IMG/VR virus record: IMGVR_UViG_3300048905_000034
Location: 1 to 63,250 of that record
Strand: one strand, 5' to 3'
Origin: a virus
DNA: 63,250 bases
Part shown: positions 9,057-25,472 of the stretch, in pieces
Position numbering within the stretch: the stretch's first letter is position 1
How the letters are laid out: each line of letters opens with the position of its first letter
Made by a program: the position numbers and the translations under genes
The notes under the pieces: generated by a model
What the model was told of the DNA's origin: nothing
Database searches by the model: none
What the model saw: only the letters and a program-made list of their open reading frames with translations

Positions 9057-9839
9057 GTGGCTACCAACACCAGCACCAGCAACACCAGCACAACCGCCGT
9101 AGTCGTACCCGCAAGCGCGGAAGCGGCACTGATCGAATCGAACGCGCTGGAAGCGCTCAAGCAGGCATACAAGCACCAGCAGGCGGAATTGACCCAGCAC
9201 GAGGACATCCGCAAGCAGGCGGAAGCGGCGAAGCAGACAGCCGCCGTGTGGATGGCGCGTATCGCCCACAGGGTAGCGACTCACCCGGCAGTTGCCACCA
9301 GTCGTTACCCGTACAACATCACGGGCGCGGCGAAGGCTTTGGATGTGCCTATCTCCACGTTCCGCCCGTATGCCCTTGCGGGTGAGGTGTTGGGGCGGAA
9401 GGATCGCGCCGGACTCCTGTCTGTTCCCGCGCTGGAAGACATCACCATTGTTGAAAAGTCTTTCGACGCAACGACTCGTGCGGAGCAGAAGGCTAAGCGC
9501 GTGAAGGCGGCCGCAAAGCAGGCACAGTTGGAAGCGAAGGCGAAGGAACTGGAAGCGCTGAAGGCGAAGCAGGGCGGCACTCCTGCCGCTCCTGCGGGTA
9601 CTCCTGCCGCTCCTGCTGGCGCTCCTGCCACTGCGGGTACTCCTGCCACTGCTGGCGCTCCTGCTGGCGCTCCTGCCGCTCCTGCCGGACCGTCCGTAAC
9701 GGATGACATCCTGCGGACCGCGCGGGAACTGGTGAAGATGTCGAAAGCACAGCGCGCTAACGACAAGCAGGCATGGGCGAAGACGCACGGCGAACTGGTG
9801 AAGGTGCTTGTCGAACTGTTCCCCGGGCTGAAGGTCTAG
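9057..9839 (+). CDS. first rightward gene: HTH-containing protein with coiled-coil and Pro/Ala tandem repeats, 260 aa
   Basis: GTG 9057 after AGGAGAACAAA; N-terminus VATN encoded by ggctaccaac; YNITGAAKALDVPISTFRPY is HTH-like. Confidence 0.65.
   Translation: MATNTSTSNTSTTAVVVPASAEAALIESNALEALKQAYKHQQAELTQHEDIRKQAEAAKQTAAVWMARIAHRVATHPAVATSRYPYNITGAAKALDVPISTFRPYALAGEVLGRKDRAGLLSVPALEDITIVEKSFDATTRAEQKAKRVKAAAKQAQLEAKAKELEALKAKQGGTPAAPAGTPAAPAGAPATAGTPATAGAPAGAPAAPAGPSVTDDILRTARELVKMSKAQRANDKQAWAKTHGELVKVLVELFPGLKV
9577..9688 (+). repeat. in-frame tandem repeats encoding (GTPAAPA / GAPATA)n
   Basis: Reiterated actcctgccgctcctgc / gctcctgccactgc units read directly. Confidence 0.8.
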
Positions 9840-9849
9840 CACCTAGCGA

Positions 9850-9881
9850 CTAGGCCCCAGCCCGGAAGGGTTGGGGCCTAG
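9850..9881 (+). terminator. hairpin after gene 9057..9839 (no T-tract)
   Basis: ctaggcccca - 12-nt loop - tggggcctag. Confidence 0.45.
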
Positions 9882-9903
9882 TCCCATGCCTGCCGTCCGG
9901 TCC

Positions 9904-9923
9904 GCCGTTGGTCGACCAACTCC
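9904..9923. repeat. PAL20 copy (2 mismatches)
   Basis: gccgttggtcgaccaactcc in the 9840-10215 non-coding gap. Confidence 0.7.
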
Positions 9924-9989
9924 CCCCCTCCCCCCTCCCCCCTGTCCCCCGTGTCCCCTGCACCCGTGTCCGTACCCGTTGGCGCTGGT

Positions 9990-10009
9990 GCAGTTGGTCG
10001 ACCGTTCGC
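9990..10009. repeat. PAL20 copy with a degenerate right arm
   Basis: gcagttggtcgaccgttcgc. Confidence 0.6.
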
Positions 10010-10022
10010 CGATTCGGCGTTC

Positions 10023-10096
10023 GTCGTCACGGAATTTCCGTCATAAAAAATGCCCGTTCCGTCATTGAATATCCGTCACTGAAAGGTCCCCGTCAT
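10023..10096 (+). repeat. iteron-like direct repeats of (T)CCGTCA(T/C)
   Basis: gtcgtcac 10023, ttccgtcat 10036, ttccgtcat 10057, atccgtcac 10071, ccccgtcat 10088; A-tract at 10045-10050. Confidence 0.65.
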
Positions 10097-10215
10097 GGCA
10101 CGTACTCCCAAGCCCCTACTGTCCGCCACCTTCACCGCATGGGTTGCTTCCCTTCCCGTAGGCACACGTCCTACGCGCTGAATGTCCGCCACTGAATCCG
10201 TCCCGAAAGGTCGCC

Positions 10216-10398
10216 ATGTCCGATACCCAGCCCACCACCGCCCCTACCTGCATGTATTGCGGGCGTGCCATTGAACAGGTCCCCGACATCTGGGTACCGG
10301 ACCGCTTCAACTGGGTCCATTCCGTCACCGGATACGGCGACTGCGGCGACAAGGGCGAACATGCGGATACGTCCGCATGGCCCACGAAAGGGGAGTAG
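10216..10398 (+). CDS. hypothetical Cys-containing protein, 60 aa
   Basis: Track ORF; RBS GAAAGG; CMYCGR...DCGD. Confidence 0.55.
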   Translation: MSDTQPTTAPTCMYCGRAIEQVPDIWVPDRFNWVHSVTGYGDCGDKGEHADTSAWPTKGE

Positions 10399-10415
10399 TC
10401 CGTCTTGTCATGGAC

Positions 10416-10445
10416 TTGACACGTCTTGTCAAATCATGATACGCT
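10416..10445 (+). promoter_or_regulatory. SigA-type promoter
   Basis: TTGACA - 18 nt - TACGCT (TANNNT); ATGCCCT box 19 nt further, then PAL20. Confidence 0.55.
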
Positions 10446-10482
10446 TGTGTCTTGCCGGTTCACCATGCCCTGAACCGGATCG

Positions 10483-10502
10483 GCGGTTGGTCGACCAACC
10501 GC
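10483..10502. repeat. PAL20 copy with a compensatory arm change
   Basis: gcggttggtcgaccaaccgc: A>G at position 3 and T>C at position 18 keep a perfect palindrome. Confidence 0.85.
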
Positions 10503-10513
10503 CAGCATCACCC

Positions 10514-10524
10514 GGCTACCAACC
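10514..10524 (+). repeat. GGCTACCAACC leader motif
   Basis: ggctaccaaccgaaagaag then ATG 10539. Confidence 0.8.
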
Positions 10525-10538
10525 GAAAGAAGTCCGTC

Positions 10539-10994
10539 ATGAAATCCTTCAGCACGCCCACCGTCCCCACCGTCGCAACACTCACAGCGGCCACCATCGG
10601 CCTCGCTATCGGATGGGCCATCATCGGCCCCACCCCGGACCCACGTACGGACCCACGTACCCCTGCCCCCACGGCCACCAGCGACTCCGCACCGCAGGAG
10701 GATGACCCCGGCTGGGACTGTGCCACCATGGGGAACCGCATCTGCGCTGATCCCGCCCATGTCCACGCCGCCGACGCATGGAAGGCATGGGACACGGCAG
10801 GGGGATGGCGCTACCTGAAGGCCGACCCCAACGTGGAGAACCGCGTGGACTACATCGGCACGGCCATACTCCCACCCAACGTGGACGAATCCCGTGGGTA
10901 CGGCGCTATCCCGTCACGTGATGGGTGGTACGTGTTCCGCGCTGTACCTGTCGACCTTGCCTACGTCACAACGTCCGCCATCGCAGGGAAGTAG
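10539..10994 (+). CDS. secreted/membrane protein, 151 aa
   Basis: Internal ATG of the track ORF 10452; N-terminal hydrophobic segment TVATLTAATIGLAIGWAIIG. Confidence 0.65.
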   Translation: MKSFSTPTVPTVATLTAATIGLAIGWAIIGPTPDPRTDPRTPAPTATSDSAPQEDDPGWDCATMGNRICADPAHVHAADAWKAWDTAGGWRYLKADPNVENRVDYIGTAILPPNVDESRGYGAIPSRDGWYVFRAVPVDLAYVTTSAIAGK

Positions 10995-11002
10995 GGAACG
11001 TC

Positions 11003-11206
11003 ATGCAGTGGATCGAAGCTACCCCGGCATATGGCCGCGACTACACCAACCAGAAGGCGGTACTCGCCGACTGGATGGCGGACAAGGACTTCGTGGAAAC
11101 CACCACGCGGTCCTATGTGAACCGCTCGCAGGCGCAACGGATGGGCCTGTCGGTCATCATCCGATACGACAAGAACCGCAAGGTCATGGACGTCTCCAAG
11201 AAGTAA
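11003..11206 (+). CDS. hypothetical protein, 67 aa
   Basis: ATG 11003 after GGGAAGTAGGGAAC; MQWIEATPAYGRDY... Confidence 0.6.
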   Translation: MQWIEATPAYGRDYTNQKAVLADWMADKDFVETTTRSYVNRSQAQRMGLSVIIRYDKNRKVMDVSKK

Positions 11207-11208
11207 CC

Positions 11209-11219
11209 GGCTACCAACC
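11209..11219 (+). repeat. GGCTACCAACC motif
   Basis: 3 nt after stop 11206, 8 nt before PAL20. Confidence 0.8.
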
Positions 11220-11227
11220 CACGGCCA

Positions 11228-11247
11228 GCAGTTGGGCGACCAACTGC
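11228..11247. repeat. PAL20 copy, G-variant, helix extended to 26 bp
   Basis: ccagcagttgggcgaccaactgctgg (11225-11250). Confidence 0.9.
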
Positions 11248-11268
11248 TGGCCACCGAAAGGAACCATC

Positions 11269-11604
11269 ATGAAAGACCTGCCCACCTCCACCACCGACCA
11301 GCCCCGTATCTCGCTGGAAGAGAAGGAGCGGATACTCGAAGCGCTGTCCATTGCGGTGGAACTCACGCCGCTGAACGCACCCGTCCTGATCGCCACCGCC
11401 TACATGGAAGGCGTGCCCATCGCCGCGCTGGCGAAGTGGTTCCGGGTTCCCCGCACCTTCATGCTGGACTTCGTGAACGTCCAGCTGATCGGCCATGCGG
11501 AGGTCACGCGCCTCACTAGGGCGACACGTGCCAAGGCATCGGCGATGAAGCGCGAAGAGGCCATGCGACAGCACCCGTCCAACGGCACCCGTCCCACCGA
11601 ATAA
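11269..11604 (+). CDS. hypothetical HTH-like protein, 111 aa
   Basis: ATG after GAAAGGAAC; MEGVPIAALAKWFRVPRTFMLDFV resembles a sigma-region-4-type HTH. Confidence 0.55.
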   Translation: MKDLPTSTTDQPRISLEEKERILEALSIAVELTPLNAPVLIATAYMEGVPIAALAKWFRVPRTFMLDFVNVQLIGHAEVTRLTRATRAKASAMKREEAMRQHPSNGTRPTE

Positions 11605-11617
11605 CCCACCCCGGCTG

Positions 11618-11637
11618 GCAGTTGGGCGACCAACTGC
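11618..11637. repeat. PAL20 copy, G-variant, helix extended to 28 bp
   Basis: gctggcagttgggcgaccaactgccagc (11614-11641). Confidence 0.9.
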
Positions 11638-11662
11638 CAGCCACCACCCCGAAGGAATCATC

Positions 11663-11857
11663 ATGGCTACCAACCGAACCCCCAAGCCCGCCACCCCCAA
11701 GCCCGCCGACCTGCCCCTGCCCGTCGTACCCGGCGACGCATGGGTCACGGCCCTGACCCAGCCCGCACCGCCTGAGCGCTTCCTCTGGTGCGACGAGTGC
11801 CACTACTGGCACGCCGAGGTCAACGAGTGCGCCTACACCAGCCGGGTAGGTCTGTGA
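11663..11857 (+). CDS. hypothetical protein, 64 aa (MATN N-terminus)
   Basis: RBS GAAGGAA; the start overlaps ggctaccaacc (11665-11675). Confidence 0.65.
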   Translation: MATNRTPKPATPKPADLPLPVVPGDAWVTALTQPAPPERFLWCDECHYWHAEVNECAYTSRVGL

Positions 11858-12072
11858 TGCCGCGCATGAAGGATTGCCCCGAGTGCAAGGCCAACTACAT
11901 CGCCCCGGAGGACTGGGACTACGCCAACGACGGCGCGTATCCCACCTCCACCAAGCGCGAGGAGAAGCGCGAGCACACGTACTGCGGCATGCGCCTCATG
12001 TCAGGAGGCGACTGGAAGAACCTCATTCTCACCCGGCGCGGTGGCGCGCTCATTCACAACGGAGGCAAGTGA
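11857..12072 (+). CDS. small Cys protein ending in LIHNGGK, 71 aa
   Basis: ATG overlaps the upstream stop (GTGATG); CPEC motif; 3' junction cassette at 12049-12074. Confidence 0.6.
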   Translation: MPRMKDCPECKANYIAPEDWDYANDGAYPTSTKREEKREHTYCGMRLMSGGDWKNLILTRRGGALIHNGGK

Positions 12073-12332
12073 TGGCAACGTATCCGGCGGGCACCAGCAT
12101 CGGCGAAATCACCCACTTCGACCGGGGCACCAAGGTCTGGTTCGGGTGCAAGGAGCACCCGCAGTACGAGTACATGTCCAAGCAACCGAGCGCATCGCAG
12201 TGGTTCCCCGCCAATGAGGCTGCGAAGGCGCTGCAGTGGGGTGCGGTGGACGAGTGCGCCCACAAGTACCCGAGCAGTGACGTGTGGGTCACCACCCGTG
12301 AGTACGACGACGGGCGGGAGACAGCCAAGTGA
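12072..12332 (+). CDS. hypothetical protein, 86 aa
   Basis: ATG overlaps the stop (TGATG), using the GGAGG inside the cassette. Confidence 0.6.
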   Translation: MATYPAGTSIGEITHFDRGTKVWFGCKEHPQYEYMSKQPSASQWFPANEAAKALQWGAVDECAHKYPSSDVWVTTREYDDGRETAK

Positions 12333-12445
12333 TTCTCTTCCACGAGGGCCGTCACTGGAAAGTCACCGGCAGCACATGGGTGCTGCTCACCAACCAAACC
12401 ACCACCGACCAGTTGGTCGACCAACTGCGGGAAGCAGGGGAATGA
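12329..12445 (+). CDS. hypothetical protein, 38 aa
   Basis: GTG overlaps the stop (GTGA); reads PAL20 as QLVDQL. Confidence 0.4.
   Translation: MILFHEGRHWKVTGSTWVLLTNQTTTDQLVDQLREAGE
12409..12428. repeat. PAL20 copy (1 mismatch)
   Basis: ccagttggtcgaccaactgc; 19 nt before ATG 12447. Confidence 0.85.
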
Positions 12446-12446
12446 T

Positions 12447-12731
12447 ATGTCCGTCTCACTCATCAAGGCCAAGGCCATAGCCCGTACCCCGGAGGCATAC
12501 AGCACCGAGGAACTGGACGACGCGCTGACCCGCATCGTCGAGGATGACCGCCTCTCGGAGGCGCAGGTCACCCGCATGCAGGCGAGGATCGACCCGGTCC
12601 TGCGTGCCCGTATCGCCCAGCGCCAGTCACGCATAGCATCAGCCGTAGTGTGGCCGGACATTCCCCGGTCACCCGCAGTTGGGCGACCAACTGCCGAGTC
12701 ATGCGAACAGAGGATACCCAGTGACCATTGA
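12447..12731 (+). CDS. hypothetical protein, 94 aa
   Basis: Track ORF; RBS GGGGAA; its 3' end reads PAL20 as AVGRPTA. Confidence 0.6.
   Translation: MSVSLIKAKAIARTPEAYSTEELDDALTRIVEDDRLSEAQVTRMQARIDPVLRARIAQRQSRIASAVVWPDIPRSPAVGRPTAESCEQRIPSDH
12675..12694. repeat. PAL20 copy, G-variant
   Basis: gcagttgggcgaccaactgc; 27 nt before GTG 12721. Confidence 0.9.
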
Positions 12732-12903
12732 ATACGGCGCACGCCTTCCCCGTTCCGGCGTCGTCTACATGAAAAGCGCAGACCTCCCCGTCGTGCAGGT
12801 GTGGCTGGAGGAGTTCTCCAGCGTCACCCCACTAGAGCTAGTGGTGCGGGAATGTTCGGAACTGAGTAAGGGTCACTGGGTCGCCGTCGCCACGGCCCCA
12901 TAA
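12721..12903 (+). CDS. hypothetical protein, 60 aa
   Basis: GTG after AGAGGA; in frame with the track ORF 12679. Confidence 0.5.
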   Translation: MTIEYGARLPRSGVVYMKSADLPVVQVWLEEFSSVTPLELVVRECSELSKGHWVAVATAP

Positions 12904-12907
12904 AGCC

Positions 12908-12953
12908 GGGTGCAGGTGAGGTCTTTCGGTTGGTAGCCCCCTCGCCTGCACCC
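12908..12953 (+). terminator. terminator-like hairpin with the conserved loop TTTCGGTTGGTAGCC
   Basis: 14-bp stem gggtgcaggtgagg / cctcgcctgcaccc (one G-U), 18-nt loop, then cttcacgttt. Confidence 0.65.
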
Positions 12954-12963
12954 CTTCACGTTT

Positions 12964-12989
12964 GGCTACCAACCACCCGGCTACCAACC
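12964..12989 (+). repeat. two tandem GGCTACCAACC motifs
   Basis: 12964-12974 and 12979-12989; exact complement of the hairpin loop at 12928-12938; followed by GAAGGAG and ATG 13004. Confidence 0.85.
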
Positions 12990-13003
12990 CGAAGGAGCAC
13001 ATC

Positions 13004-13330
13004 ATGGAATGGAACGAACAACTGGCCAAGGCCAAGGCCAACGGCAGGGAGTACGCGGACAACGGCATTGCCGGTGGCGAGAAGTCACCCGCCGAGTCGC
13101 CGCTGTCAGGGGAATGGGCGGGTGCGCTCACCCCACGGGACGTGGTCAACATGGCCGCTGGCGATGGCGCGTACGACAACGCGCAGGAGTTCGAGGTCAC
13201 GGACCTGTGCGACGCATGGGAGGACGGCTACCTGTCCGCGTCATGGCCCGAGCCTGCGGGTGAGGTGTGCGAGCACGGCATGTCCGCTTCGCTGTGCGGC
13301 GGACCGATGCACTGGTACGACCATGGCTGA
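13004..13330 (+). CDS. hypothetical acidic protein, 108 aa
   Basis: ATG 13004, RBS GAAGGAG 7 nt upstream. Confidence 0.65.
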   Translation: MEWNEQLAKAKANGREYADNGIAGGEKSPAESPLSGEWAGALTPRDVVNMAAGDGAYDNAQEFEVTDLCDAWEDGYLSASWPEPAGEVCEHGMSASLCGGPMHWYDHG

Positions 13331-13553
13331 GCAGGATACCCCGGTGCCCATGATGTCTACGGGCGTGCCCAGCACCCTCGGCAACTGGCATGCGATGTGC
13401 TTGGCCACGTTCGGCGATGGCTCAGCGGCCACGGCATTCATCAAGGCGAAGCTCGACGAGCAGGGCGCGGACATGGCCGTGCTCTCGGACGAGGGGCAGT
13501 TGCTCTACGCCCTCATGGTCATGCACTTCAACGGTGCGGAAGGTGGTTGCTGA
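13323..13553 (+). CDS. hypothetical protein, 76 aa
   Basis: ATG 13323 overlaps the end of the previous gene; in frame with the track ORF 12930. Confidence 0.55.
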   Translation: MAEQDTPVPMMSTGVPSTLGNWHAMCLATFGDGSAATAFIKAKLDEQGADMAVLSDEGQLLYALMVMHFNGAEGGC

Positions 13554-13565
13554 CTTCCCATCGAC

Positions 13566-13595
13566 TTGACAAGAGTGGTCAAGTCGTGATAGAAT
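13566..13595 (+). promoter_or_regulatory. SigA-type promoter
   Basis: TTGACA - 18 nt - TAGAAT; ATGCCCT box at 13614, PAL20 at 13631. Confidence 0.7.
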
Positions 13596-13630
13596 TAGAG
13601 TAGCGGGGGAAGTATGCCCTCGTACGGCCA

Positions 13631-13650
13631 GCAGTTGGGCGACCAACTGC
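13631..13650. repeat. PAL20 copy, G-variant, helix extended to 28 bp
   Basis: gccagcagttgggcgaccaactgctggc (13627-13654). Confidence 0.9.
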
Positions 13651-13657
13651 TGGCACC

Positions 13658-13668
13658 GGCTACCAACC
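13658..13668 (+). repeat. GGCTACCAACC motif
   Basis: ggctaccaaccgaataggaaac then ATG 13686. Confidence 0.8.
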
Positions 13669-13685
13669 GAATAGGAAACATCATC

Positions 13686-13928
13686 ATGGCTACCACCACC
13701 GGCCCCCTCACCGACCGTGAAATCCAGATGGCCCTGACCATCGACGACATCGAAACCCGGCGTGCCAGCATGCACCGTATGCTCACCAGTAACCGGTGGC
13801 TGCTTGCCACTGCGCTGGACGCCATCCGCAACGGCGACAGCCACGTGGCGGACGAATACGTCGACCGTTTCCTCACGCATCTTGATGCGGAAATCACCCA
13901 CCAGACCACCACCAAACCGACGGCTTGA
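13686..13928 (+). CDS. hypothetical protein, 80 aa (alternative start 13614)
   Basis: ATG 13686 after AGGAAAC; the in-frame upstream ATG 13614 would translate PAL20. Confidence 0.6.
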   Translation: MATTTGPLTDREIQMALTIDDIETRRASMHRMLTSNRWLLATALDAIRNGDSHVADEYVDRFLTHLDAEITHQTTTKPTA

Positions 13929-13931
13929 ACC

Positions 13932-14090
13932 ATGCGTACGCAACCCACCAGCGATGAATGCCCCTCACCCACCACCCGCATTGACCCTCACTGGCCGATG
14001 GGACCGGAGGTTATCGACCTCTTTGCCATCATCAGGGCGGAGGTCGCGGCCACTCTCGCGGCCATGGGAGGGCGTGATGAACGACGATGA
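13932..14090 (+). CDS. hypothetical protein, 52 aa
   Basis: ATG 13932; overlaps the next gene by 14 nt. Confidence 0.4.
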   Translation: MRTQPTSDECPSPTTRIDPHWPMGPEVIDLFAIIRAEVAATLAAMGGRDERR

Positions 14091-14307
14091 ACTGTTCTCC
14101 TCGGCTCACCACCGCGAGAAGGTGCAATGCACCATCTGCGGGAGGGCCGGGTACCCGGGTGGCTCATGGCAGGTTGCCTGCCGACGGGGCCACCCATGGG
14201 CATGCTCCTGCGGGCGCAGGTTCAACGGTCTTGCGAGCCTAGCCGGGCATCTTCGGCATGCCGGGCAGGATCACTTCACAGCTTCACGGCCCACCACGGG
14301 CCGATGA
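14077..14307 (+). CDS. zinc-finger protein (C2H2-like), 76 aa
   Basis: RBS GGGAGGG; CTICG...CSCGRRFNGLASLAGHLRH. Confidence 0.55.
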   Translation: MNDDELFSSAHHREKVQCTICGRAGYPGGSWQVACRRGHPWACSCGRRFNGLASLAGHLRHAGQDHFTASRPTTGR

Positions 14308-14310
14308 TCG

Positions 14311-14330
14311 GCAGTTGGGCGACCAACTGC
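14311..14330. repeat. PAL20 copy, G-variant
   Basis: Starts 3 nt after stop 14307. Confidence 0.9.
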
Positions 14331-14363
14331 AACCACCACCAAATTGAATAGGAGTTATCCGTA

Positions 14364-14756
14364 ATGATTGCTGCGACTTTCCACGGAACTAATCACTACA
14401 TACCGAATTACGATGAATCAAGCATCGAGGTATTCGAGAATATCGGGCATGCAATTTCCGCATTGTTCGCCCGCTATGAATCCCACGGTGAGGGAAACCT
14501 TGAAGCCCGCTACCTGAACGGTGGCAAGTGGCGCAGGCCCTTCCATGTGGAACTGGGCGACAGCTTCGAGTGCTACGTGATCCCCGACGACTTCGCCGCA
14601 CTGCCCGGGGACGACGCCATCACCCTCGAAGCGATGACCGCCGTGCATGCAGGGCTGTGGTCATACAAGCTCAGGCTCATGCGCCCATGGAATTTCCCCG
14701 GGGACACCCCCGATTCCAGTGTCGCCGTCGCTGTGGAGAAGCGGGTGGCACTGTGA
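14364..14756 (+). CDS. hypothetical protein, 130 aa
   Basis: Track ORF; RBS TAGGAG. Confidence 0.65.
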   Translation: MIAATFHGTNHYIPNYDESSIEVFENIGHAISALFARYESHGEGNLEARYLNGGKWRRPFHVELGDSFECYVIPDDFAALPGDDAITLEAMTAVHAGLWSYKLRLMRPWNFPGDTPDSSVAVAVEKRVAL

Positions 14757-15112
14757 ACCCGGCACTCAACGTCGCCTGCCCCACCTGCCATGTACGTGCA
14801 GGGGAGCCATGCACCCGGCCAACGGACACCACCCGCGTCGGCGTGGGGTACGTCCACCTCTCCCGGGAATCCCTCGGCAAGTACGGGATGCAGGACTTCA
14901 TGCTCACCTTCGGCCTCCAGTATGCGGAGGAAGAGCACCCGCGCTGGCCGGAGTGCAACCCGAAGGGCTGGGTGCGGATCACGGCCACGGACTATGAGGC
15001 TGCGCGGGCCATGGCCGTTGAGCGGTTCGGTCTGGACTGGTCTGTCCTCACCCCGTATTGGCGTTTCCAGTCACGGTACTTCCCTGCCGGGGAACTCATG
15101 GTGCTGCCATGA
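14753..15112 (+). CDS. hypothetical protein with an N-terminal CxxC...C motif, 119 aa
   Basis: GTG overlaps the stop (GTGA). Confidence 0.55.
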   Translation: MNPALNVACPTCHVRAGEPCTRPTDTTRVGVGYVHLSRESLGKYGMQDFMLTFGLQYAEEEHPRWPECNPKGWVRITATDYEAARAMAVERFGLDWSVLTPYWRFQSRYFPAGELMVLP

Positions 15113-15195
15113 AGCTGCGGTTGCTGTTCGCCGTCGCTATGGTGGGGTCCTTCCTCATGGGCTGGGCACTGGCCGACCTCACCCGCATGCCATGA
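15109..15195 (+). CDS. small membrane protein, 28 aa
   Basis: MKLRLLFAVAMVGSFLMGWALADLTRMP; ATGA overlaps at both ends. Confidence 0.45.
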   Translation: MKLRLLFAVAMVGSFLMGWALADLTRMP

Positions 15196-15611
15196 CCGAG
15201 TGGTGGGACAGTGCGGACGCCAGCAGGTACGGCCCGCGCTACTACGACCCCAAGGGCAGGCCCATGAGCATGCGCCGATGGGCGCAGTCGATGGGCAATG
15301 AACGGCACGTAGGCGAGAGCATCCTCCGCATACGTGGCCGGTGGTACCGGGTGTCCACCGTCTGGCTGGGGCTGGACCACAGCTTCTTCGGTGGCCCGCC
15401 GCTGATCTTCGAGACGATGATCTTCGGCGGCGACCGCGACACGGACCTCATGATGTGGCGCTACTCCACCGCAGACGAGGCCATGCGTGGGCACGTGCGT
15501 GCCGTGCGTTTTCTAAAAAGGAACGTGCGCGAGGCACGGCATCCACAACTTATCCACAACGGTCGGAAACCGACAGCAGTTGGTCGACCAACCGCCAACA
15601 GAAAGAAGTAA
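15192..15611 (+). CDS. hypothetical protein, 139 aa, with a LIHNGRKP tail followed by translated PAL20
   Basis: Internal ATG of the track ORF 14790; STVWLGLDHSFFGGPPLIFETMIFGG core. Confidence 0.6.
   Translation: MTEWWDSADASRYGPRYYDPKGRPMSMRRWAQSMGNERHVGESILRIRGRWYRVSTVWLGLDHSFFGGPPLIFETMIFGGDRDTDLMMWRYSTADEAMRGHVRAVRFLKRNVREARHPQLIHNGRKPTAVGRPTANRKK
15576..15595. repeat. PAL20 copy (1 mismatch)
   Basis: gcagttggtcgaccaaccgc; 19 nt before ATG 15615. Confidence 0.85.
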
Positions 15612-15614
15612 CCC

Positions 15615-16244
15615 ATGGCTACCAACCCAACCGCCGCCTCCAACACGTGGCTCAGTGACATCGTCACCGCAATGCGCCACCTCGGAGGGCAGGCAACCCT
15701 CAGCGAACTGTACGACGAGTTGATCCAGATGCGGCTGAACCTTCCCGACTCATGGAAGGAGGTCATCAGCCGGGTCATCCAGAACCATTCGTCGGACGCC
15801 AGCGATTTCAACCCGAGCTTCACCGACCTGTTCTACTCAGTGAGTGGCCTCGGCGCTGGGCGCTGGGGATTGCGGGGGGTCACCCCGGACAACCCTGCTA
15901 TCCCCTTCGTCGTCCACTATGCGCTGGACCTAGAGTCACCGCCCCTCATTGCATGCGAGGCACCGGACCCGATCAAGTGGTCGGCCAAGGCCAGCGAGGT
16001 CACATGCCGGGACTGCATGACACATGAGCAGTTCCCCCAGTCGGCACGGAAGGTGGAGGACATCACCGAACCGCCCACCATCACGGCAAACGACGTGCTC
16101 AGGGTGGCGGCGGACCTGATCGTCGATGCCAACTACGACTACACCAAGGCCATCGTCGCCATGACCAGCGAACTGCTTGGCGCTGGTCACGGCGACACCA
16201 TCCTCATGACCCGCATCCTGCGGTCACTGGCACAGGGAGATTGA
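15615..16244 (+). CDS. winged-helix (HARE-HTH / Mrr-N-like) domain protein, 209 aa
   Basis: N-terminus ...AMRHLGGQATLSELYDELIQ...W..VISRVIQNHSSD...GRWGLR; the start overlaps ggctaccaacc (15617-15627). Confidence 0.5.
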   Translation: MATNPTAASNTWLSDIVTAMRHLGGQATLSELYDELIQMRLNLPDSWKEVISRVIQNHSSDASDFNPSFTDLFYSVSGLGAGRWGLRGVTPDNPAIPFVVHYALDLESPPLIACEAPDPIKWSAKASEVTCRDCMTHEQFPQSARKVEDITEPPTITANDVLRVAADLIVDANYDYTKAIVAMTSELLGAGHGDTILMTRILRSLAQGD

Positions 16245-20524: not shown

Positions 20525-20559
20525 TGGGAAGTTGTCTCCAAACGTCTCCAAAGATAACC

Positions 20560-20579: not shown

Positions 20580-20610
20580 AATCACCAACCCATAAGGAAA
20601 CCCACATCTA

Positions 20611-21891: not shown

Positions 21892-22157
21892 TGGACGACG
21901 ACGGGAAGCGGGTAGTGCTCAGGATGAGAGCAGCTTTGCGGCTGCTCTCCCCTGACGACATCACGCCGATGGGCAGACGGATTCTGGAAAACATTCTGGA
22001 CGACGAAGAGGACTGGCCGACATCCGGCACGGAGGTGTGCAAGCACTGCTCCGAGTTGATCTACCAGACCGGGATGGGGCGCTGGCGTCACGCCAATGGC
22101 ATGTATACCTGCACCATCCAGATGCCACGGCCACTGCCCAAGGCCGAACCCAACTAA
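21891..22157 (+). CDS. hypothetical protein, 88 aa
   Basis: ATG overlaps the stop; CKHC...C motif. Confidence 0.55.
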   Translation: MDDDGKRVVLRMRAALRLLSPDDITPMGRRILENILDDEEDWPTSGTEVCKHCSELIYQTGMGRWRHANGMYTCTIQMPRPLPKAEPN

Positions 22158-22165
22158 GGAACACC

Positions 22166-22381
22166 ATGAAATTCAAGAAGGACACTAGGCAGGACCGCGC
22201 CGTGGTCACCATCACCCGGGAGGAGTACGTCTTCGAGGACGGTGAAATCTGGTGGCGGTACGGCAGTGAGTTCAAGGACCCGTACATCAGAGAGGTGAAG
22301 CGGGACAGCTGGGTGGTCAACAGCAAGACAGGTCAGTCTCGCCAGAGCGAACTAGACCGCAAGATCATGGGTGAGCGGTGA
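22166..22381 (+). CDS. hypothetical protein, 71 aa
   Basis: RBS TAAGGAAC. Confidence 0.55.
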   Translation: MKFKKDTRQDRAVVTITREEYVFEDGEIWWRYGSEFKDPYIREVKRDSWVVNSKTGQSRQSELDRKIMGER

Positions 22382-22530
22382 TGCGTGAGGTACTGGAACG
22401 GATTTTCATTGGCCTGAGTGAGGTCTTGGAGAGGGTCTACTACACCGGCTGGGGCTGTAAGCACGGCAAGCACCGCATGAAGTTCAGCGGGTGCATGTAC
22501 TGCGGGCAGACCACTGACCACCGGCTGTGA
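22381..22530 (+). CDS. small Cys protein, 49 aa
   Basis: TGATG overlap; GCKHGKH...CMYCG. Confidence 0.45.
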   Translation: MREVLERIFIGLSEVLERVYYTGWGCKHGKHRMKFSGCMYCGQTTDHRL

Positions 22531-22563
22531 CCGGATGACATGCCCGGTCACGCCTACCCAAAC

Positions 22564-22592
22564 TTGACAAACTACCTAATTCTTGATATAAT
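22564..22592 (+). promoter_or_regulatory. consensus SigA/sigma70 promoter
   Basis: TTGACA - 17 nt - TATAAT; ATGCCCT box at 22613, PAL20 at 22632. Confidence 0.8.
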
Positions 22593-22631
22593 GGTAGTAA
22601 GAGGGGAAAACTATGCCCTCAGTCTGGCCTA

Positions 22632-22651
22632 ACAGTTGGTCGACCAACTGC
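22632..22651. repeat. PAL20 copy (1 mismatch)
   Basis: acagttggtcgaccaactgc. Confidence 0.85.
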
Positions 22652-22660
22652 GGCACAAGA

Positions 22661-22954
22661 ATGGAGCACGGCATGACTCAGCACGTCGCCTACCGATGGA
22701 ACGGCAACGTCTACTGCGAAGACGACATCGTGGCAGAACTCACCCACCACTTCCCATGGCTTGCATGGGTGGAGGTCGGCAACCAGCCCGCGATGGATGA
22801 CGCCGAAGCGGAACTCAATGACATCGCTCATCTGTTCCACATCGACCGCACGGCACCACGTCAGGTGGCAGCCGTCGGCTTCCCCGAGTACGTGGGCGAA
22901 CACCCGGGCTTCTGCTCGTGGTGCAAGCGCTGGTTCAACAGCGACGACCACTAG
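22661..22954 (+). CDS. hypothetical protein, 97 aa (alternative start 22673)
   Basis: ATG 22673 has GGAG 7 nt upstream; C-terminal CSWC. Confidence 0.6.
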   Translation: MEHGMTQHVAYRWNGNVYCEDDIVAELTHHFPWLAWVEVGNQPAMDDAEAELNDIAHLFHIDRTAPRQVAAVGFPEYVGEHPGFCSWCKRWFNSDDH

Positions 22955-22976
22955 CTACCAACCGAAGGAAACAATC

Positions 22977-23174
22977 GTGACCGAAGATATACCCAACAAA
23001 CCCACCAACCCTGCCGTCACGCAGGCATACAAGGATGGTGGGTACACCGACAAGAATGGCCAAGTGTGGAGCCGTGGGATGGACGGGTGGTTCTGCGAAA
23101 TATCGAAGGACACCTCGATGCTCATTAGGCACCATGACTTCGTATCCATCATCGAGAAGGAGAACCCGGAATGA
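22977..23174 (+). CDS. hypothetical protein, 65 aa
   Basis: GTG after agctaccaaccGAAGGAAAC. Confidence 0.55.
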   Translation: MTEDIPNKPTNPAVTQAYKDGGYTDKNGQVWSRGMDGWFCEISKDTSMLIRHHDFVSIIEKENPE

Positions 23175-23503
23175 GCGACGGACCGGACGAGAAGGGCAAC
23201 TGGGCCATGCTGGCACCGCAGGTTCCCGACCGTGCCCCGAGTGTGGAGTCAGTAGAGGATGGGACCGAGGGCGGGTACACCGCCTCTCCTGCGGGCGATC
23301 ATCCGGTGTTCTCCCAGTGGACGCACTACAACCCGACGCTCGTGGAGGCGCTGGCCGCGCACGGTGCGGTACCTGAGCAGGAGGTGGTCGACCATCTGAG
23401 CGCACTGTTCAGTGAGGCGACGACCGACTCTCGTGTACCCCCGCTTGAGCGGCAGGCTGAGGCCGTGCGTCGGTACGTCGAAGAGTACGTGGCGGTGGGC
23501 TAA
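23171..23503 (+). CDS. hypothetical acidic protein, 110 aa
   Basis: Track ORF; ATGA overlap. Confidence 0.6.
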   Translation: MSDGPDEKGNWAMLAPQVPDRAPSVESVEDGTEGGYTASPAGDHPVFSQWTHYNPTLVEALAAHGAVPEQEVVDHLSALFSEATTDSRVPPLERQAEAVRRYVEEYVAVG

Positions 23504-23737
23504 ATGCCCTCGCTGCCACCGCTGCGCTGGAGGTTCGGGGCCAAGCGCTTCGGCACCTCCAGCGTGGCGCTCTCGGTGGACGGTCACGACATCGTCCACA
23601 TTTCAGAGATTGACGGTAACGGCAACGCCTTCGTCATCGTCTACAAGTCATCGCACCCTGATTCTCCGGTGCTGTTCAGCGGACGCATCAACATCAACGC
23701 CCACAAGGAGGGCCATGACGCGCTACAAAATCACTGA
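23504..23737 (+). CDS. hypothetical protein, 77 aa
   Basis: Track ORF, abuts the previous stop. Confidence 0.55.
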   Translation: MPSLPPLRWRFGAKRFGTSSVALSVDGHDIVHISEIDGNGNAFVIVYKSSHPDSPVLFSGRININAHKEGHDALQNH

Positions 23738-24023
23738 GTACAAGGACGGCGATCCCACGACTGAACGGGTCATCGAGGGCGCACCGAAGGACGTGCTGGA
23801 AGTCTTCTCTGCACTGATAACGGGCCTCGCCACGACTACCACCCGGGCGGCGACGTGCATCGCAGACGCGGAGAAGTCCCTGCCCCAACTCCCCATCGGT
23901 GCTGGCATCACTGCCATACCGAACGGCACACACTGCATCACCATCCACCGGCTGGTCGAGGGCATCAAGAACAGCCCGGTGCCTGCGCAGTGGCGTAACT
24001 CCGCAATGGGCACGCGCCCGTAG
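23715..24023 (+). CDS. hypothetical protein, 102 aa
   Basis: ATG after AGGAGGGCC. Confidence 0.6.
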   Translation: MTRYKITEYKDGDPTTERVIEGAPKDVLEVFSALITGLATTTTRAATCIADAEKSLPQLPIGAGITAIPNGTHCITIHRLVEGIKNSPVPAQWRNSAMGTRP

Positions 24024-24067
24024 CGCATCAAGCTCCGGCGAGACAGGTCTGTCTCGCTGGGATAGAG

Positions 24068-24118
24068 GTCCGTGCAGGGGAGATTTCGGTTGGTAGCCGT
24101 CCCTGCACGGACTTTTTT
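24068..24118 (+). terminator. canonical intrinsic terminator with the conserved loop TTTCGGTTGGTAGCC
   Basis: 12-bp stem gtccgtgcaggg / ccctgcacggac, then TTTTTT. Confidence 0.85.
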
Positions 24119-24139
24119 ATGTCATGTCATGAAGAATGG

Positions 24140-24168
24140 TCTACACATGGGAAGCCATAAGGTAGACT
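24140..24168 (+). promoter_or_regulatory. possible SigA-type promoter
   Basis: TCTACA - 17 nt - TAGACT. Confidence 0.4.
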
Positions 24169-24244
24169 TATACAGAGTGATCCGGTGGTGGTCATGCGCA
24201 AGGCATGGCAACCACCCCACACCATTAGAGGAGCAACACACACC

Positions 24245-24535
24245 ATGACTAGGAAGCTGGTCGGCAAACTTCCGCCGCGCGCATCCCGTGGCGAGGACTA
24301 TGACTGGGACGGCGCTGCGAGGCTTGCGGCCAACCACCCCACTGAGGCAGTCCTCGCCGCAGAACACGTACCCGAATCGCGTGTGAAATCCGTTCGCGGT
24401 TACACACGCTCCCCGTTCCACACCGCAACGGGACACATCGCCGTCGCCGTCAGAAACTCTACGGTCGAAGCAGACGGTATCCGCTACGGCGACGTATACT
24501 TTACATGGCAAACCAACGAGGAAGAGGGCATCTAA
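24245..24535 (+). CDS. hypothetical protein, 96 aa
   Basis: ATG after AGAGGAGCAAC. Confidence 0.6.
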   Translation: MTRKLVGKLPPRASRGEDYDWDGAARLAANHPTEAVLAAEHVPESRVKSVRGYTRSPFHTATGHIAVAVRNSTVEADGIRYGDVYFTWQTNEEEGI

Positions 24536-24538
24536 CCT

Positions 24539-25069
24539 ATGGCTTTACCTACCACCTTCGGAGAGTTCCGAGTAGTCGGTGATCCGAAGTTGAACTACAC
24601 AAAGGACGGCGGCATCCCCGTCGCCAACGTTCGGCTTGTGTGTAACGCACGCAGGAAGGACGCTCAGGGCGGATGGGAGGATGACCCCGACAAAGTTCTG
24701 TGGGCCAATGCCACCCTTTGGCGCAAGCCTGCGGAGAACTTGGTGAACTCCGTCCGCGATAAGGACCTCGTCCATGTCGTCGGCACCTTCTATGAGCGCC
24801 ACTTCGAGCACCAAGGCGTGAAGCGTACGTCCATTGAGATTGATGCGGTCAGCATCAGCCCCTCCCTGACGTTCCGCGCCACTCCCCACAGTGACCAACA
24901 GCAGGGCGCACAGCCCGCGCAGGGCGCACCGCAGGGACCGGCGGGGGGCTGGCCGAACAGCCAGCCGCAGGCTCCGTACGGACAGCCACAGAGCCAGCCA
25001 GCCTACGCCCAGCAGGGCGGACAGCAGGGTGGATGGCCTGAGCAGCCGTACCAGCAACCCCCGTTCTAA
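24539..25069 (+). CDS. ssb: single-stranded DNA-binding protein
   Basis: OB-fold N-terminal pattern, Gln/Gly/Pro-rich linker, C-terminal ...QQPPF tail. Confidence 0.85.
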   Translation: MALPTTFGEFRVVGDPKLNYTKDGGIPVANVRLVCNARRKDAQGGWEDDPDKVLWANATLWRKPAENLVNSVRDKDLVHVVGTFYERHFEHQGVKRTSIEIDAVSISPSLTFRATPHSDQQQGAQPAQGAPQGPAGGWPNSQPQAPYGQPQSQPAYAQQGGQQGGWPEQPYQQPPF

Positions 25070-25089
25070 CCAGTTGGTCGACCAACTCC
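25070..25089. repeat. PAL20 copy (2 mismatches)
   Basis: ccagttggtcgaccaactcc immediately after the ssb stop. Confidence 0.8.
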
Positions 25090-25129
25090 AAACCACATAA
25101 CCCACACACAAGTAGGAGACGCACTACCA

Positions 25130-25405
25130 ATGACGACTGAGACGCTTGAAGCAACCGCCGCTACGACCGGGGAAGGCGTAGAGGAAAACCTTCAGCAGAG
25201 GAAGAACCGCCTGCGCAATGAGGCCGAGCGCGAAGTCCTCAACAAGCACCGCGACGAACTGAACCAGATCACGGAGGCGAAGTTCGTGGAGCAGGGCCTG
25301 CCCTACACCCGCCGCCTGACGGAGCGTGAGAAGGCGCAGAAGAAGATCGAGGAAGTGCTCAACGAGCATCCCGAACTGCGCGAGGTGTACTCTGCCCAGC
25401 AGTAG
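25130..25405 (+). CDS. hypothetical coiled-coil protein, 91 aa
   Basis: RBS GTAGGAGAC. Confidence 0.65.
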   Translation: MTTETLEATAATTGEGVEENLQQRKNRLRNEAEREVLNKHRDELNQITEAKFVEQGLPYTRRLTEREKAQKKIEEVLNEHPELREVYSAQQ

Positions 25406-25414
25406 CCGGACATG

Positions 25415-25447
25415 ACGAAGGCCCCGTGTTTTAGACGGGGCCTTCGT
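25415..25447 (+). terminator. terminator-like hairpin
   Basis: acgaaggccccgt - gttttag - acggggccttcgt (13-bp stem); no 3' T-tract. Confidence 0.6.
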
Positions 25448-25461
25448 GCTCGGAACAACTT

Positions 25462-25472
25462 GGCTACCAACC
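25462..25472 (+). repeat. GGCTACCAACC motif
   Basis: 15 nt after the hairpin, in the 210-bp non-coding gap. Confidence 0.8.

What the first reader, a model, noticed from the sequence alone, without database searches (positions are those of the whole stretch)
9059..25472. An 11-nt motif, GGCTACCAACC, recurs next to ribosome-binding sites and even overlaps start codons (MATN proteins)
Eight perfect plus-strand copies lie at 10514, 11209, 11665, 12964, 12979, 13658, 15617 and 25462. Near-copies lie at 9059, 22953 and 34215. Several run straight into the RBS: ggctaccaaccGAAAGAAG, ggctaccaacccGAAGGAG, ggctaccaaccGAATAGGAAAC and agctaccaaccGAAGGAAAC. In four genes it overlaps the start, (A/G)TGGCTACCAAC, so proteins 9057, 11663, 13686 and 15615 begin M/V-A-T-N/T. 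The motif shares the ACCAAC core with the PAL20 right arm (GCGACCAACTGC), so it may be a half-site for the same factor. Alternatively it may be a start-associated sequence like the SAS of Cluster K mycobacteriophages.
Basis: partly seen in the sequence, partly recalled or inferred. Interest (0 to 1): 0.7.

Follow-up and report, generated by a model that had tools for sequence, protein, structure and literature searches.

The report
Start-associated early-gene motif with complementary hairpins
A 10-11 base sequence sits next to, or on top of, the start codons of about nine early genes of an uncultured Arthrobacter-type phage. It is conserved across related phages, and its exact complement sits at the tip of two conserved RNA hairpins, which makes it a new, testable variant of the unexplained "start-associated sequences" of actinobacteriophages.

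Summary
GGCTACCAACC occurs 10 times exactly where 0 are expected. All eight plus-strand sites are confirmed.

The window is a complete, circularly permuted phage genome. All copies lie in the rightward early arm.

Sense copies sit in two fixed registers: abutting the Shine-Dalgarno sequence, with the core starting 23-28 nt before the start codon, or directly after the start codon (ATG|GCTACCAAC). I recovered syntenic metagenomic relatives at 47-95% protein identity. They keep the core GCTACCAAC(C) at orthologous sites even where flanks, N-terminal protein sequence or register change.

The PAL20 palindrome changes sequence between lineages while the motif does not, so the half-site idea is not supported.

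Both antisense copies form the invariant tip of two hairpins whose stems co-vary. One of these is a terminator.

Best reading: an SAS-like element on early mRNAs, lying inside the ribosome footprint, that a trans factor binds. The hairpin tips are the best candidate partner in this subclade. More distant relatives keep sense copies without the H2 hairpin, so that step is inference. A DNA operator remains a serious rival.

The parts
9059..9069 (+). Sense copy GGCTACCAACA overlapping the GTG start of the first early gene (9057-9839); register +3.
   Evidence: The orthologous starts ATG/TTG-GCTACCAAC are kept in L142, L143 and L144.
10514..10524 (+). Sense copy abutting the SD (GGCTACCAACC-GAAAGAAG-tccgtc-ATG) of gene 10539-10994. 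It lies 15 nt after a PAL.
   Evidence: The orthologue in L144 (49% identity, E 3e-34) carries the motif at +3 instead.
11209..11219 (+). Sense copy directly after the TAA stop of gene 11003-11206 and 8 nt before a PAL; the start of gene 11269 is 50 nt downstream.
   Evidence: The same arrangement is found in L142 (3218), L143 (2261) and L146 (4241).
11665..11675 (+). Sense copy overlapping the start codon of gene 11663-11857 (ATG|GCTACCAACC, MATN).
   Evidence: It is kept in L133, where the downstream protein sequence differs.
12908..12953 (+). Hairpin H1. It has a 14-bp GC-rich stem and starts 4 nt after a stop codon.
   Evidence: The apex 9-mer is invariant in 6 of 6 lineages while stem positions change, with 2 compensatory pairs.
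12964..12974 (+). Sense copy, the first of a tandem pair, 36 nt downstream of the H1 apex.
   Evidence: A sense copy 33-45 nt after the H1 apex is kept in L133, L143 and L144; it is degenerate in L146 and in the first copy of L142.
12979..12989 (+). Sense copy abutting the SD (GGCTACCAACC-cGAAGGAG-cacatc-ATG) of gene 13004-13330.
13658..13668 (+). Sense copy in a 5' leader: sigma-70-like promoter (13566-13595), then PAL (13635-13646), then the motif, the SD, and ATG 13686.
   Evidence: It is kept in L134, L142, L143 and L144.
13688..13698 (+). Degenerate copy at the start of gene 13686 (ATG|GCTACCACC, MATT).
   Evidence: Its orthologue is perfect in L134 and L146.
15617..15627 (+). Sense copy overlapping the start of gene 15615-16244 (MATN).
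   Evidence: It is kept in L135, L138, L142, L143 and L146. The N-terminal about 98 aa is replaced in L142 while MATNPT is retained.
22953..22963 (+). Near-copy AGCTACCAACC. It overlaps the TAG stop of gene 22673-22954 and abuts the SD of gene 22977 (GTG).
   Evidence: It is kept in L135, L142, L143, L144 and L146.
24068..24118 (+). Hairpin H2 followed by TTTTTT, an intrinsic-terminator-like end of the operon that starts at the consensus promoter 22564-22592. Its apex (24088-24098) is GGTTGGTAGCC and is the second minus-strand copy.
   Evidence: The apex GTTGGTAGCC is invariant in 7 of 7 lineages, with 6 compensatory stem pairs.
25447..25490 (+). Conserved non-coding block of about 45 nt, TTCGGWACAACYTTGGCTACCAACCCTGAATGAAACCGAA, containing sense copy 25462-25472. 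It lies just after a terminator hairpin and about 200 nt upstream of the replication genes.
   Evidence: It is the most widely conserved copy and is also present in L149, L159 and L160.
27666..27675 (+). Decayed copy GCTACCAGCC after a TAA stop and before a PAL.
   Evidence: The orthologous sites are perfect in L142 (19778) and L144 (20618).
34215..34225 (+). Near-copy AGCTACCAACC, 13 nt into ORF 34202-34477 and in a different reading frame from the MATN starts.
   Evidence: It was not checked in relatives, because the fetched loci do not reach this region.
9022..15591 (.). Six PAL20 copies lie within 31 nt of a motif copy, with cores at 9022, 10487, 11232, 11622, 13635 and 15580. They are an associated but separately evolving element.

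Best explanation
GCTACCAAC(C) is a start-associated cis-element of the early mRNAs, of the same kind as the SAS motifs of actinobacteriophages.

Shown:
- It is strongly over-represented and strand-specific.
- It is confined to the early arm.
- It sits immediately 5' of the SD, between the SD and the start codon, or immediately 3' of the start codon. All of these positions lie inside the footprint of an initiating 30S subunit while leaving the SD and start codon free.
- Selection holds it at the nucleotide level across diverged relatives.

Inferred mechanism: a sequence-specific trans-acting factor binds the motif on the mRNA and blocks or modulates ribosome loading, so that a set of about nine early genes is controlled together.

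Best candidate partner in this phage: the two conserved hairpins H1 and H2, whose apical sequence GGUUGGUAGCC is the perfect complement. As the stable 3' end of the 22564-24118 transcript, H2 could act in trans. H1 could pair in cis with the copies 36 and 51 nt downstream, just before gene 13004. This would work like the loop-to-SD pairing of Staphylococcus aureus RNAIII.
For: Enrichment: 10 copies against 0 expected.

Distribution: all copies are in the early arm and none in the late genes.

Register: offsets are +3 or -23 to -28 from start codons in six genomes.

Conservation where other things change:
- The same orthologous gene carries the motif before the SD in the window but after the ATG in L144 and L146.
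- MATN is retained while the N-terminal domain is swapped.
- All start-overlapping copies use GCT, which makes up 12.8% of Ala codons genome-wide.
- The motif is constant while PAL diverges.

Antisense copies: all 11 antisense copies seen in seven genomes lie at the apex of H1 or H2. The apex is invariant while the stems show compensatory changes.

Pairing energies: apex-to-initiation-region duplexes score -19.6 to -30.3 kcal/mol for motif genes, against a median of -15.6 for 42 other early genes. The pairing reaches 17 nt, including GAAAGA of the SD, at 10514.

Accessibility: sense sites are predicted to be more accessible than background (P = 8e-4).

Co-occurrence: numbers of sense copies and hairpins fall together across lineages: 11/2, 10/2, 10/2, 9/2, 7/2, 4/1, 3/0.
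Against: - Distant relatives L159 and L160 keep 3 sense copies each but lack H2 at its orthologous place, and L151 has no antisense copy across the H1 region. The hairpins therefore cannot be the universal partner.
- The best-conserved copy (25462) and the stop-proximal copies (11209, 27666) are 50-200 nt from a start.
- H1 and H2 are only two loci and may be paralogues.
- The apex is predicted to be partly closed by a weak 4-5 bp mini-stem.
- Identity of sense and antisense sequence is equally expected for one DNA site read in two orientations.
- No expression data exist.
- The generalisation failed in two of three other SAS systems tested. An antisense SAS in a hairpin loop exists in Adephagia but not in Pixie or AnnaSerena.
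Confidence: 0.4

Rival explanations
1. The motif is an asymmetric double-stranded DNA site for a monomeric phage regulator or replication initiator, comparable to the stoperators of Cluster A mycobacteriophages or to DnaA boxes. The two reversed copies would simply be the same site in the other orientation.
For: - The site is short, asymmetric and orientation-biased, and lies in short intergenic gaps, as described for stoperators (PMC3203893).
- The most conserved copy sits in a non-coding block directly upstream of the replication-initiator-like gene and the DnaB gene, far from a start codon.
- Sense copies persist without the hairpins in L159, L160 and L151.
- The phage encodes several candidate DNA binders: an RHH-like ORF at 8424-8630(-), weak HTH hits in 28617-28991 and 29469-29852, and an Lsr2-like protein at 20940-21752.
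Against: - It gives no reason for the two fixed registers flanking the SD/start unit, or for placing the site inside the first four codons of 3-4 genes per genome.
- It gives no reason why every reversed copy sits at a hairpin apex.
- There are no sites in the late arm.
- No integrase or repressor was found among the proteins scanned. Not all proteins were scanned.
Confidence: 0.25
2. The motif is an RNA element read by a protein or by the ribosome itself, for example a translational repressor of early mRNAs in the manner of T4 RegA, a site-specific endoribonuclease in the manner of T4 RegB, or a standby or enhancer site. The antisense hairpin tips would play no part, or only a secondary competitive part.
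For: - It shares the positional and strand evidence of the main explanation.
- The motif is constant across lineages and persists where the hairpins are absent. That fits a conserved protein or host partner.
- SAS systems in Pixie and AnnaSerena have no antisense copy.
Against: - No candidate RNA-binding protein was identified.
- A ribosomal contact cannot be the same at -25 and at +3.
- It leaves the invariant complementary apexes of H1 and H2 unexplained.
Confidence: 0.2
3. The motif is a half-site of the factor that binds the PAL20 palindrome.
For: - In the window, CTACCAACCGA matches the PAL right arm CGACCAACYGC at 8-9 of 11 positions (sequence).
- Six copies lie within 31 nt of a PAL.
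- Tandem PAL half-sites at 8672-8700 suggest that PAL can be read as half-sites.
Against: PAL arms differ between lineages, and L144 lacks ACCAAC altogether, while the motif is unchanged at 9 sense and 2 antisense copies there. Motif copies also occur without any PAL nearby (12964, 12979, 22953, 25462).
Confidence: 0.05
4. The motif is mainly a gene-boundary sequence that promotes recombination and mosaicism. Conserved linkers would be exchanged by the phage Rad52-like recombinase.
For: - Genes downstream of conserved PAL-SD-ATGGCTACCAACC junctions are swapped between close relatives.
- The phage encodes a Rad52/22 protein and a PD-(D/E)XK nuclease.
- Boundary repeats have been proposed for Arthrobacter cluster AU phages (bioRxiv 10.1101/2020.01.10.891226).
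Against: - Ten to thirteen bases is too short to drive homologous exchange alone.
- Copies within one genome share only the motif, not their flanks.
- It explains neither the strand bias, nor the start register, nor the hairpin apexes.
Confidence: 0.05

Closest known systems
[quoted passage not shown]
   Same: - A short asymmetric repeat in about 10-19 copies.
- Confined to non-structural genes.
- Next to start codons, in one orientation with rare reversed copies.
- About half the copies are linked to an upstream inverted repeat whose sequence differs between sub-lineages while the short motif stays constant.
- Function still unknown in 2024-2025.
Sources: PMC3203893, PMC11373665, PMC12699233, PMC7302621.
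   Different: - The sequence is unrelated.
- SAS contains the SD core AGGAG and lies 3-9 nt from the start. This motif contains no SD and flanks the SD/start unit at -28 to -15 or from +3, sometimes as the first codons of the protein.
- Here the reversed copies are two conserved hairpin apexes per genome.
18-bp asymmetric intergenic motif of Microbacterium Cluster EC phages (TAGaCTATaGGTgTaAgC)
   Same: About 12 copies, all in one orientation, in small intergenic gaps, 21-30 bp upstream of start codons and upstream of the RBS. Function unknown (PMC7302621). This is the same register as the SD-abutting copies here.
   Different: The sequence is unrelated and longer. It is also found among structural genes. 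No start-codon-overlapping or reversed hairpin copies are reported.
Stoperators of Cluster A mycobacteriophages (L5 repressor gp71)
   Same: Asymmetric sites of about 13 bp, in many copies, with orientation tied to the direction of transcription, in short intergenic spaces (as cited in PMC3203893, and from established knowledge of L5).
   Different: Stoperators are spread over both genome arms of a temperate phage and are bound by the immunity repressor to block elongation. Here there are no late-arm sites, no repressor or integrase was found, and the sites have a fixed register to start codons.
Hairpin-loop to SD pairing by regulatory RNAs such as S. aureus RNAIII, whose C-rich loops, including that of its terminator hairpin, pair with the SD of several mRNAs (established knowledge, not tested here)
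   Same: One or two structured RNAs present a short complementary sequence in hairpin loops to the initiation regions of several mRNAs. A terminator hairpin can be the active loop.
   Different: Here the pairing is only predicted. The target is a dedicated motif beside the SD rather than the SD itself. The hairpins are parts of mRNAs or 3' ends, not a known separate sRNA gene.
T4 RegA (translational repressor) and RegB (endoribonuclease) acting on initiation regions of early mRNAs (established knowledge)
   Same: Co-ordinated post-transcriptional control of many early genes of a lytic phage through a short sequence at the initiation region.
   Different: Those are protein effectors with loose or very short targets (GGAG for RegB). 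No homologue was detected here.

Membership tests
Cluster K-type SAS/ESAS | Short asymmetric repeat in roughly 10-19 copies, far above chance | tested here: met
   10 exact copies against 0 expected, and 13 with up to 1 mismatch against 1.04 expected.
Cluster K-type SAS/ESAS | Restricted to the non-structural half of the genome, in one orientation with rare reversed copies | tested here: met
   All copies lie in 9059-34225. The window has 11 sense and 2 antisense copies, and relatives show similar ratios.
Cluster K-type SAS/ESAS | Occupies the RBS position 3-9 nt upstream of the start and contains the SD core (consensus GGGATAGGAGCCC) | tested here: not met
   The motif has no SD core. It ends 13-17 nt before the start, abutting the SD, or begins at +3. 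The sequence is unrelated.
Cluster K-type SAS/ESAS | A subset is linked to an upstream inverted repeat that differs between sub-lineages while the SAS is constant | tested here: met
   Six of 11 sense copies lie within 31 nt of a PAL. The PAL sequence differs in at least six lineages while the motif is constant.
Stoperator-type DNA operator | Sites distributed over both arms of the genome with orientation following transcription | tested here: not met
   No copy with up to 1 mismatch occurs in the roughly 35 kb of leftward late genes.
Stoperator-type DNA operator | Bound by a phage repressor of a temperate phage | not testable with these tools
   No integrase or repressor domain appeared among 40 proteins scanned. 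Binding cannot be tested in silico.
PAL20 operator half-site | Sequence co-varies with the palindrome arms across relatives | tested here: not met
   The L144 PAL arms are CAGAYGGTCG with no ACCAAC, and L159 has ATCGGGCGACCGAT. The motif is unchanged.
Antisense loop-to-initiation-region RNA regulation (RNAIII-like) | The complementary sequence is exposed in a conserved hairpin loop on a transcribed strand | tested here: met
   H1 and H2 lie on the coding strand. The apex is invariant and the stems show compensatory changes. The apex is partly closed by a weak predicted mini-stem.
Antisense loop-to-initiation-region RNA regulation (RNAIII-like) | The partner hairpin is present wherever the target motif is present | tested here: not met
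   L159 and L160 keep sense copies but lack H2, and L151 has no antisense copy. Their genomes were only partly sampled.
Antisense loop-to-initiation-region RNA regulation (RNAIII-like) | Pairing occurs and changes translation | not testable with these tools
   Only duplex energies could be computed, at -19.6 to -30.3 kcal/mol.
Known RNA families (Rfam 15) | Match to a curated covariance model | tested here: not met
   No hit at gathering score in the whole window, and only chance-level hits (E >= 0.49) in 8800-26500.

The most novel reading that the evidence does not exclude
The tips of two conserved hairpins, one of them the terminator of an early operon, act as built-in antisense regulators (an "anti-SAS"). 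They would base-pair with the start-associated motif of about nine early mRNAs and switch their translation together. This would be the first mechanism for any SAS-type motif. It may also apply to subcluster K1 mycobacteriophages, where the single reversed SAS of Adephagia likewise sits in the loop of a long hairpin.
Probability: 0.3. Interest if true: 0.8.

Novelty: new variant of a known kind. Interest (0 to 1): 0.58.

Why it matters
Conserved start-associated motifs have been catalogued in several actinobacteriophage clusters since 2011, and none has a demonstrated function. This case adds three things:
- a clade of uncultured relatives at graded divergence, which shows nucleotide-level selection;
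- evidence that the motif may sit on either side of the SD/start unit, which argues for occlusion of the ribosome rather than a fixed ribosomal contact;
- a concrete candidate partner, the complementary hairpin tips, which makes the question testable with compensatory mutations.

If the partner is confirmed, phage mRNA 3' ends would join the known classes of translational regulators.

Tried and rejected
- **DNA similarity to known phages.** Near and distant searches gave nothing useful. A 49-nt query of the conserved block also found nothing.
- **IMG/VR scans.** Scans with PAL, with GGCTACCAACCGAA and with two early proteins gave only chance or unrelated hits.
- **Other loci from the pattern scans.** L136, L137, L140 and L141 have GC 0.48-0.50 and single sites, so I judged them chance matches.
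- **Ranunculus second repeat.** GAGGTGTTGTCCAC is a coding repeat in tail genes, not start-associated.
- **Pairing with 16S rRNA.** GGCUACC is complementary to GGUAGCC near helix 45. I rejected this from memory of the 30S structure, because that segment is base-paired, and I had no host genome to check it.
- **Resemblance to tRNA loops.** The apex loop UUGGUAG resembles a tRNA-Thr(GGU) anticodon loop or a tRNA D-loop. This is a recollection only and is weak after allowing for the number of comparisons.
- **Promoter function.** The registers put the transcription start inside the SD or the ORF, so I rejected it.
- **nut-like boxA/boxB antitermination.** There are too many copies per operon.
- **Wobble-compatible substitutions as an RNA-versus-DNA test.** There were 4 transitions against 2 transversions, which is not informative.
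- **Generalising the antisense hairpin to other SAS systems.** It is present in Adephagia and absent in Pixie and AnnaSerena.
- **Arthrobacter sp. QXT-31.** The chromosomal homologue of gene 24245-24535 has no motif around it.
- **Covariance model of H1/H2.** I considered building one and did not.

Full report
**1. The observation**

GGCTACCAACC occurs 10 times exactly in the 63,250-base window, against none in 100 dinucleotide-preserving shuffles. With up to one mismatch there are 13 copies against 1.04 expected.

**2. Genomic setting**

- A codon-usage gene call and Pfam scans show one leftward block carrying MuF, portal and terminase (3-4556) and, across the ends of the window, capsid and tail genes (36133-63242).
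- A rightward block of small genes (9057-36018) carries DUF4192, Lsr2-like, SSB, DnaB, Rad52-like and nuclease genes.
- The window is therefore a complete, circularly permuted genome. A contig of exactly 63,250 bp carries an identical protein.
- The capsid protein is 52-60% identical to those of Arthrobacter phages such as Ranunculus, Beagle and Tank. There is no DNA-level match to any deposited phage.
- All 13 motif copies lie in the rightward early arm.

**3. Anatomy of the sense copies**

The sense copies fall into a few registers.

- Five copies abut the 5' edge of the SD, at 10514, 12979, 13658 and 22953, plus the tandem copy at 12964.
- Three copies, with a fourth degenerate one, begin with the G of the start codon, at 9059, 11665, 15617 and (degenerate) 13688.
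- Two follow a stop codon and precede a PAL, at 11209 and the decayed copy at 27666.
- One lies in a conserved non-coding block (25462).
- One lies 13 nt into an ORF (34215).

Measured from putative starts, the 9-nt core begins at +3 or at -23 to -28 in the window and in five relatives. The per-genome binomial P is 1e-4 to 1e-2, even against an over-inclusive list of starts.

**4. Relatives**

A combined PAL-plus-motif pattern recovered syntenic soil-metagenome fragments at 67-82% nucleotide identity: L133, L134, L135 and L138. Homologues of two early proteins gave longer contigs at 95% down to 47% protein identity: L142-L152 and L158-L160.

The core GCTACCAAC(C) is kept at orthologous positions. 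Three comparisons show that selection acts on the nucleotides.

- The orthologue of gene 10539 (49% identity, E 3e-34) has the motif before the SD in the window, L142 and L143, but after the ATG in L144 and L146.
- The gene at 15615 has a different N-terminal domain in L142, yet both proteins begin MATNPT.
- All start-overlapping copies use GCT for alanine, which accounts for only 12.8% of Ala codons genome-wide.

Copies have also been gained or lost. L138 has a motif after the PAL orthologous to 14315, where the window has none.

**5. The motif is not a PAL half-site**

In L144 its arms have no ACCAAC, yet that genome has 9 sense and 2 antisense motif copies. The more distant Ranunculus has yet another palindrome (24 copies) and no motif. 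A constant short motif with a variable inverted repeat is the pattern reported for SAS and ESAS in Cluster K.

**6. The antisense copies**

Both lie at the apex of GC-rich hairpins on the coding strand.

- H1 (12908-12953) starts 4 nt after a stop codon. It is followed 36 and 51 nt later by the two sense copies before gene 13004.
- H2 (24068-24112) is followed by TTTTTT. It ends the operon that starts at a perfect TTGACA-17-TATAAT promoter at 22564.
- Across seven lineages the H2 apex GTTGGTAGCC is invariant while six stem pairs show compensatory changes.
- The H1 apex is invariant in six lineages.
- All 11 antisense copies seen in relatives belong to H1 or H2.

The apex is complementary to the initiation regions of the motif genes, with duplex energies of -19.6 to -30.3 kcal/mol against a median of -15.6 for 42 other early genes. 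At 10514 the complementarity runs for 17 nt into the SD. These energies follow largely from the sequence identity itself, so they are not independent evidence.

**7. What limits the antisense model**

- In L159 and L160 the place orthologous to H2 has no hairpin, and L151 has no antisense copy over the H1 region. These genomes still carry three to four sense copies, including start-associated ones. Their genomes were only partly sampled.
- The most conserved copy of all is the block at 25447-25490. It lies after a terminator and about 200 nt before the replication genes, and it is present in every lineage that has the motif. That location would also suit a DNA site.
- I tested whether reversed copies in hairpin loops are general for SAS systems. 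In Adephagia (K1) the single reversed SAS (58682-58694) does lie in the loop of a long hairpin on the coding strand. Pixie (K3) and AnnaSerena (EF) have no reversed copy.

**8. Weighing the models**

An RNA-level role at the initiation region best explains three things. The strand specificity is strict. The two registers flank the SD/start unit and leave it free, with the register shifting for one and the same gene. And the motif is placed inside the first codons.

A ribosomal contact cannot be the same at -25 and at +3. Occlusion by a bound factor can. The complementary hairpin tips are the only candidate partner visible in the sequence. I put the full statement (RNA-level element with the hairpins as partner in this subclade) at 0.4. 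The rivals are:
- a DNA operator, at 0.25;
- an RNA element read by an unidentified protein, at 0.2;
- the PAL half-site and recombination-linker readings, at about 0.05 each.

**9. Comparison with known systems**

The closest described things are the SAS/ESAS of Cluster K and Cluster EF phages and the 18-bp asymmetric motif of Cluster EC phages. All are of unknown function. This is a new variant, for four reasons:
- the sequence is unrelated;
- it has no SD core;
- it uses two registers, including the first codons of proteins;
- it has conserved complementary hairpin tips.

No Rfam family matches and there are no tRNA genes.

Noticed in passing
window, 29 sites from 1391 to 62802 (for example 9022, 11232, 13635, 22636, 55305): PAL20 (GCAGTTGGKCGACCAACTGC) occurs about 29 times over both arms, mostly 15-40 nt before start codons, but also inside long genes (portal, terminase, tape measure and 61698-63242). 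Where the centre is asymmetric (G or T), 11 of 13 sites read GGGCGACC on the sense strand, which would give a GCGA tetraloop in RNA. The same bias holds in L142 (8:0) and L143 (8:1).
   Followed up: partly
window 8424-8700: A 68-aa ORF on the minus strand (8424-8630) looks like a ribbon-helix-helix protein (RLTINIPTDLKVAMD...). This is my own reading of the sequence and it was not scanned. It has a TTCATA-17-TATAAT promoter (8665-8637), and next to it are two tandem PAL left half-sites, GCAGTTGGTCG GGCAGTTGGTCG (8672-8700). This hints that PAL is read as DNA half-sites by this protein.
   Followed up: no
window 25447-25490; also L142, L143, L144, L146, L149, L159, L160: A block of about 45 nt, TTCGGWACAACYTTGGCTACCAACCCTGAATGAAACCGAA, is the best-conserved non-coding sequence of the clade. 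It lies after a terminator and upstream of the replication genes. A 5-bp stem UUCGG/CCGAR could close it, with an A-to-G change kept as a U-G pair. It might be an origin or a leader element.
   Followed up: partly
L153 (Mycobacterium phage Adephagia JF704105) 58642-58734: The single reverse-oriented SAS of this K1 phage (GGCCTCCTATCCC) lies in the apical loop of a long GC-rich hairpin on the coding strand, in the gap between gp92 and gp93. The loop contains CCUCC, an anti-SD-like sequence. This is not mentioned in the passages of the Cluster K papers that I read.
   Followed up: partly
L013 (Arthrobacter phage Ranunculus PQ362686, 25000-69550): A different palindrome, TTACTGCCGGACGTCCGGCGGTT, occurs about 24 times with asymmetric flanks in one orientation. 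Lineage-specific intergenic palindromes therefore appear to be a shared trait of this phage group.
   Followed up: no
window 13566-13630 and 22564-22592: Two near-consensus sigma-70-type promoters (TTGACA-18-TAGAAT and TTGACA-17-TATAAT) are each followed about 35-40 nt later by a PAL in the leader. The leader sequence GTAGCGGGGGAAGTATGCCC after the first promoter is conserved in L134, L142, L143 and L144.
   Followed up: no
window 9920-9960 and 26086-26125: There is a C-rich low-complexity tract (CCCCCCTCCCCCCTCCCCCCTGTCCCCCGTGTCCCC) in the 9839-10539 gap, and a CCCGT-type repeat inside gene 25661-26413.
   Followed up: no
window 24040-24056: A perfect palindrome, GAGACAGGTCTGTCTC, lies immediately upstream of hairpin H2 and is conserved in L142 and L143. 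The operon therefore ends in a double hairpin.
   Followed up: no
L156 (Arthrobacter sp. QXT-31 chromosome CP019304, 1124559-1124834): A lone chromosomal homologue (69% identity) of phage gene 24245-24535 lies among defence-like genes (GmrSD, helicases), with no motif nearby. This is weak support for Arthrobacter as the host genus.
   Followed up: partly
L149 6169-6213 and L151 7925-7957: In the distant lineages a sense-like variant, GCTGCCAACC, sits in or beside a hairpin. In L151 it is paired with GGGGGTTGTCA. This may be a remnant of the arrangement of H1 plus its downstream motif copy.
   Followed up: no
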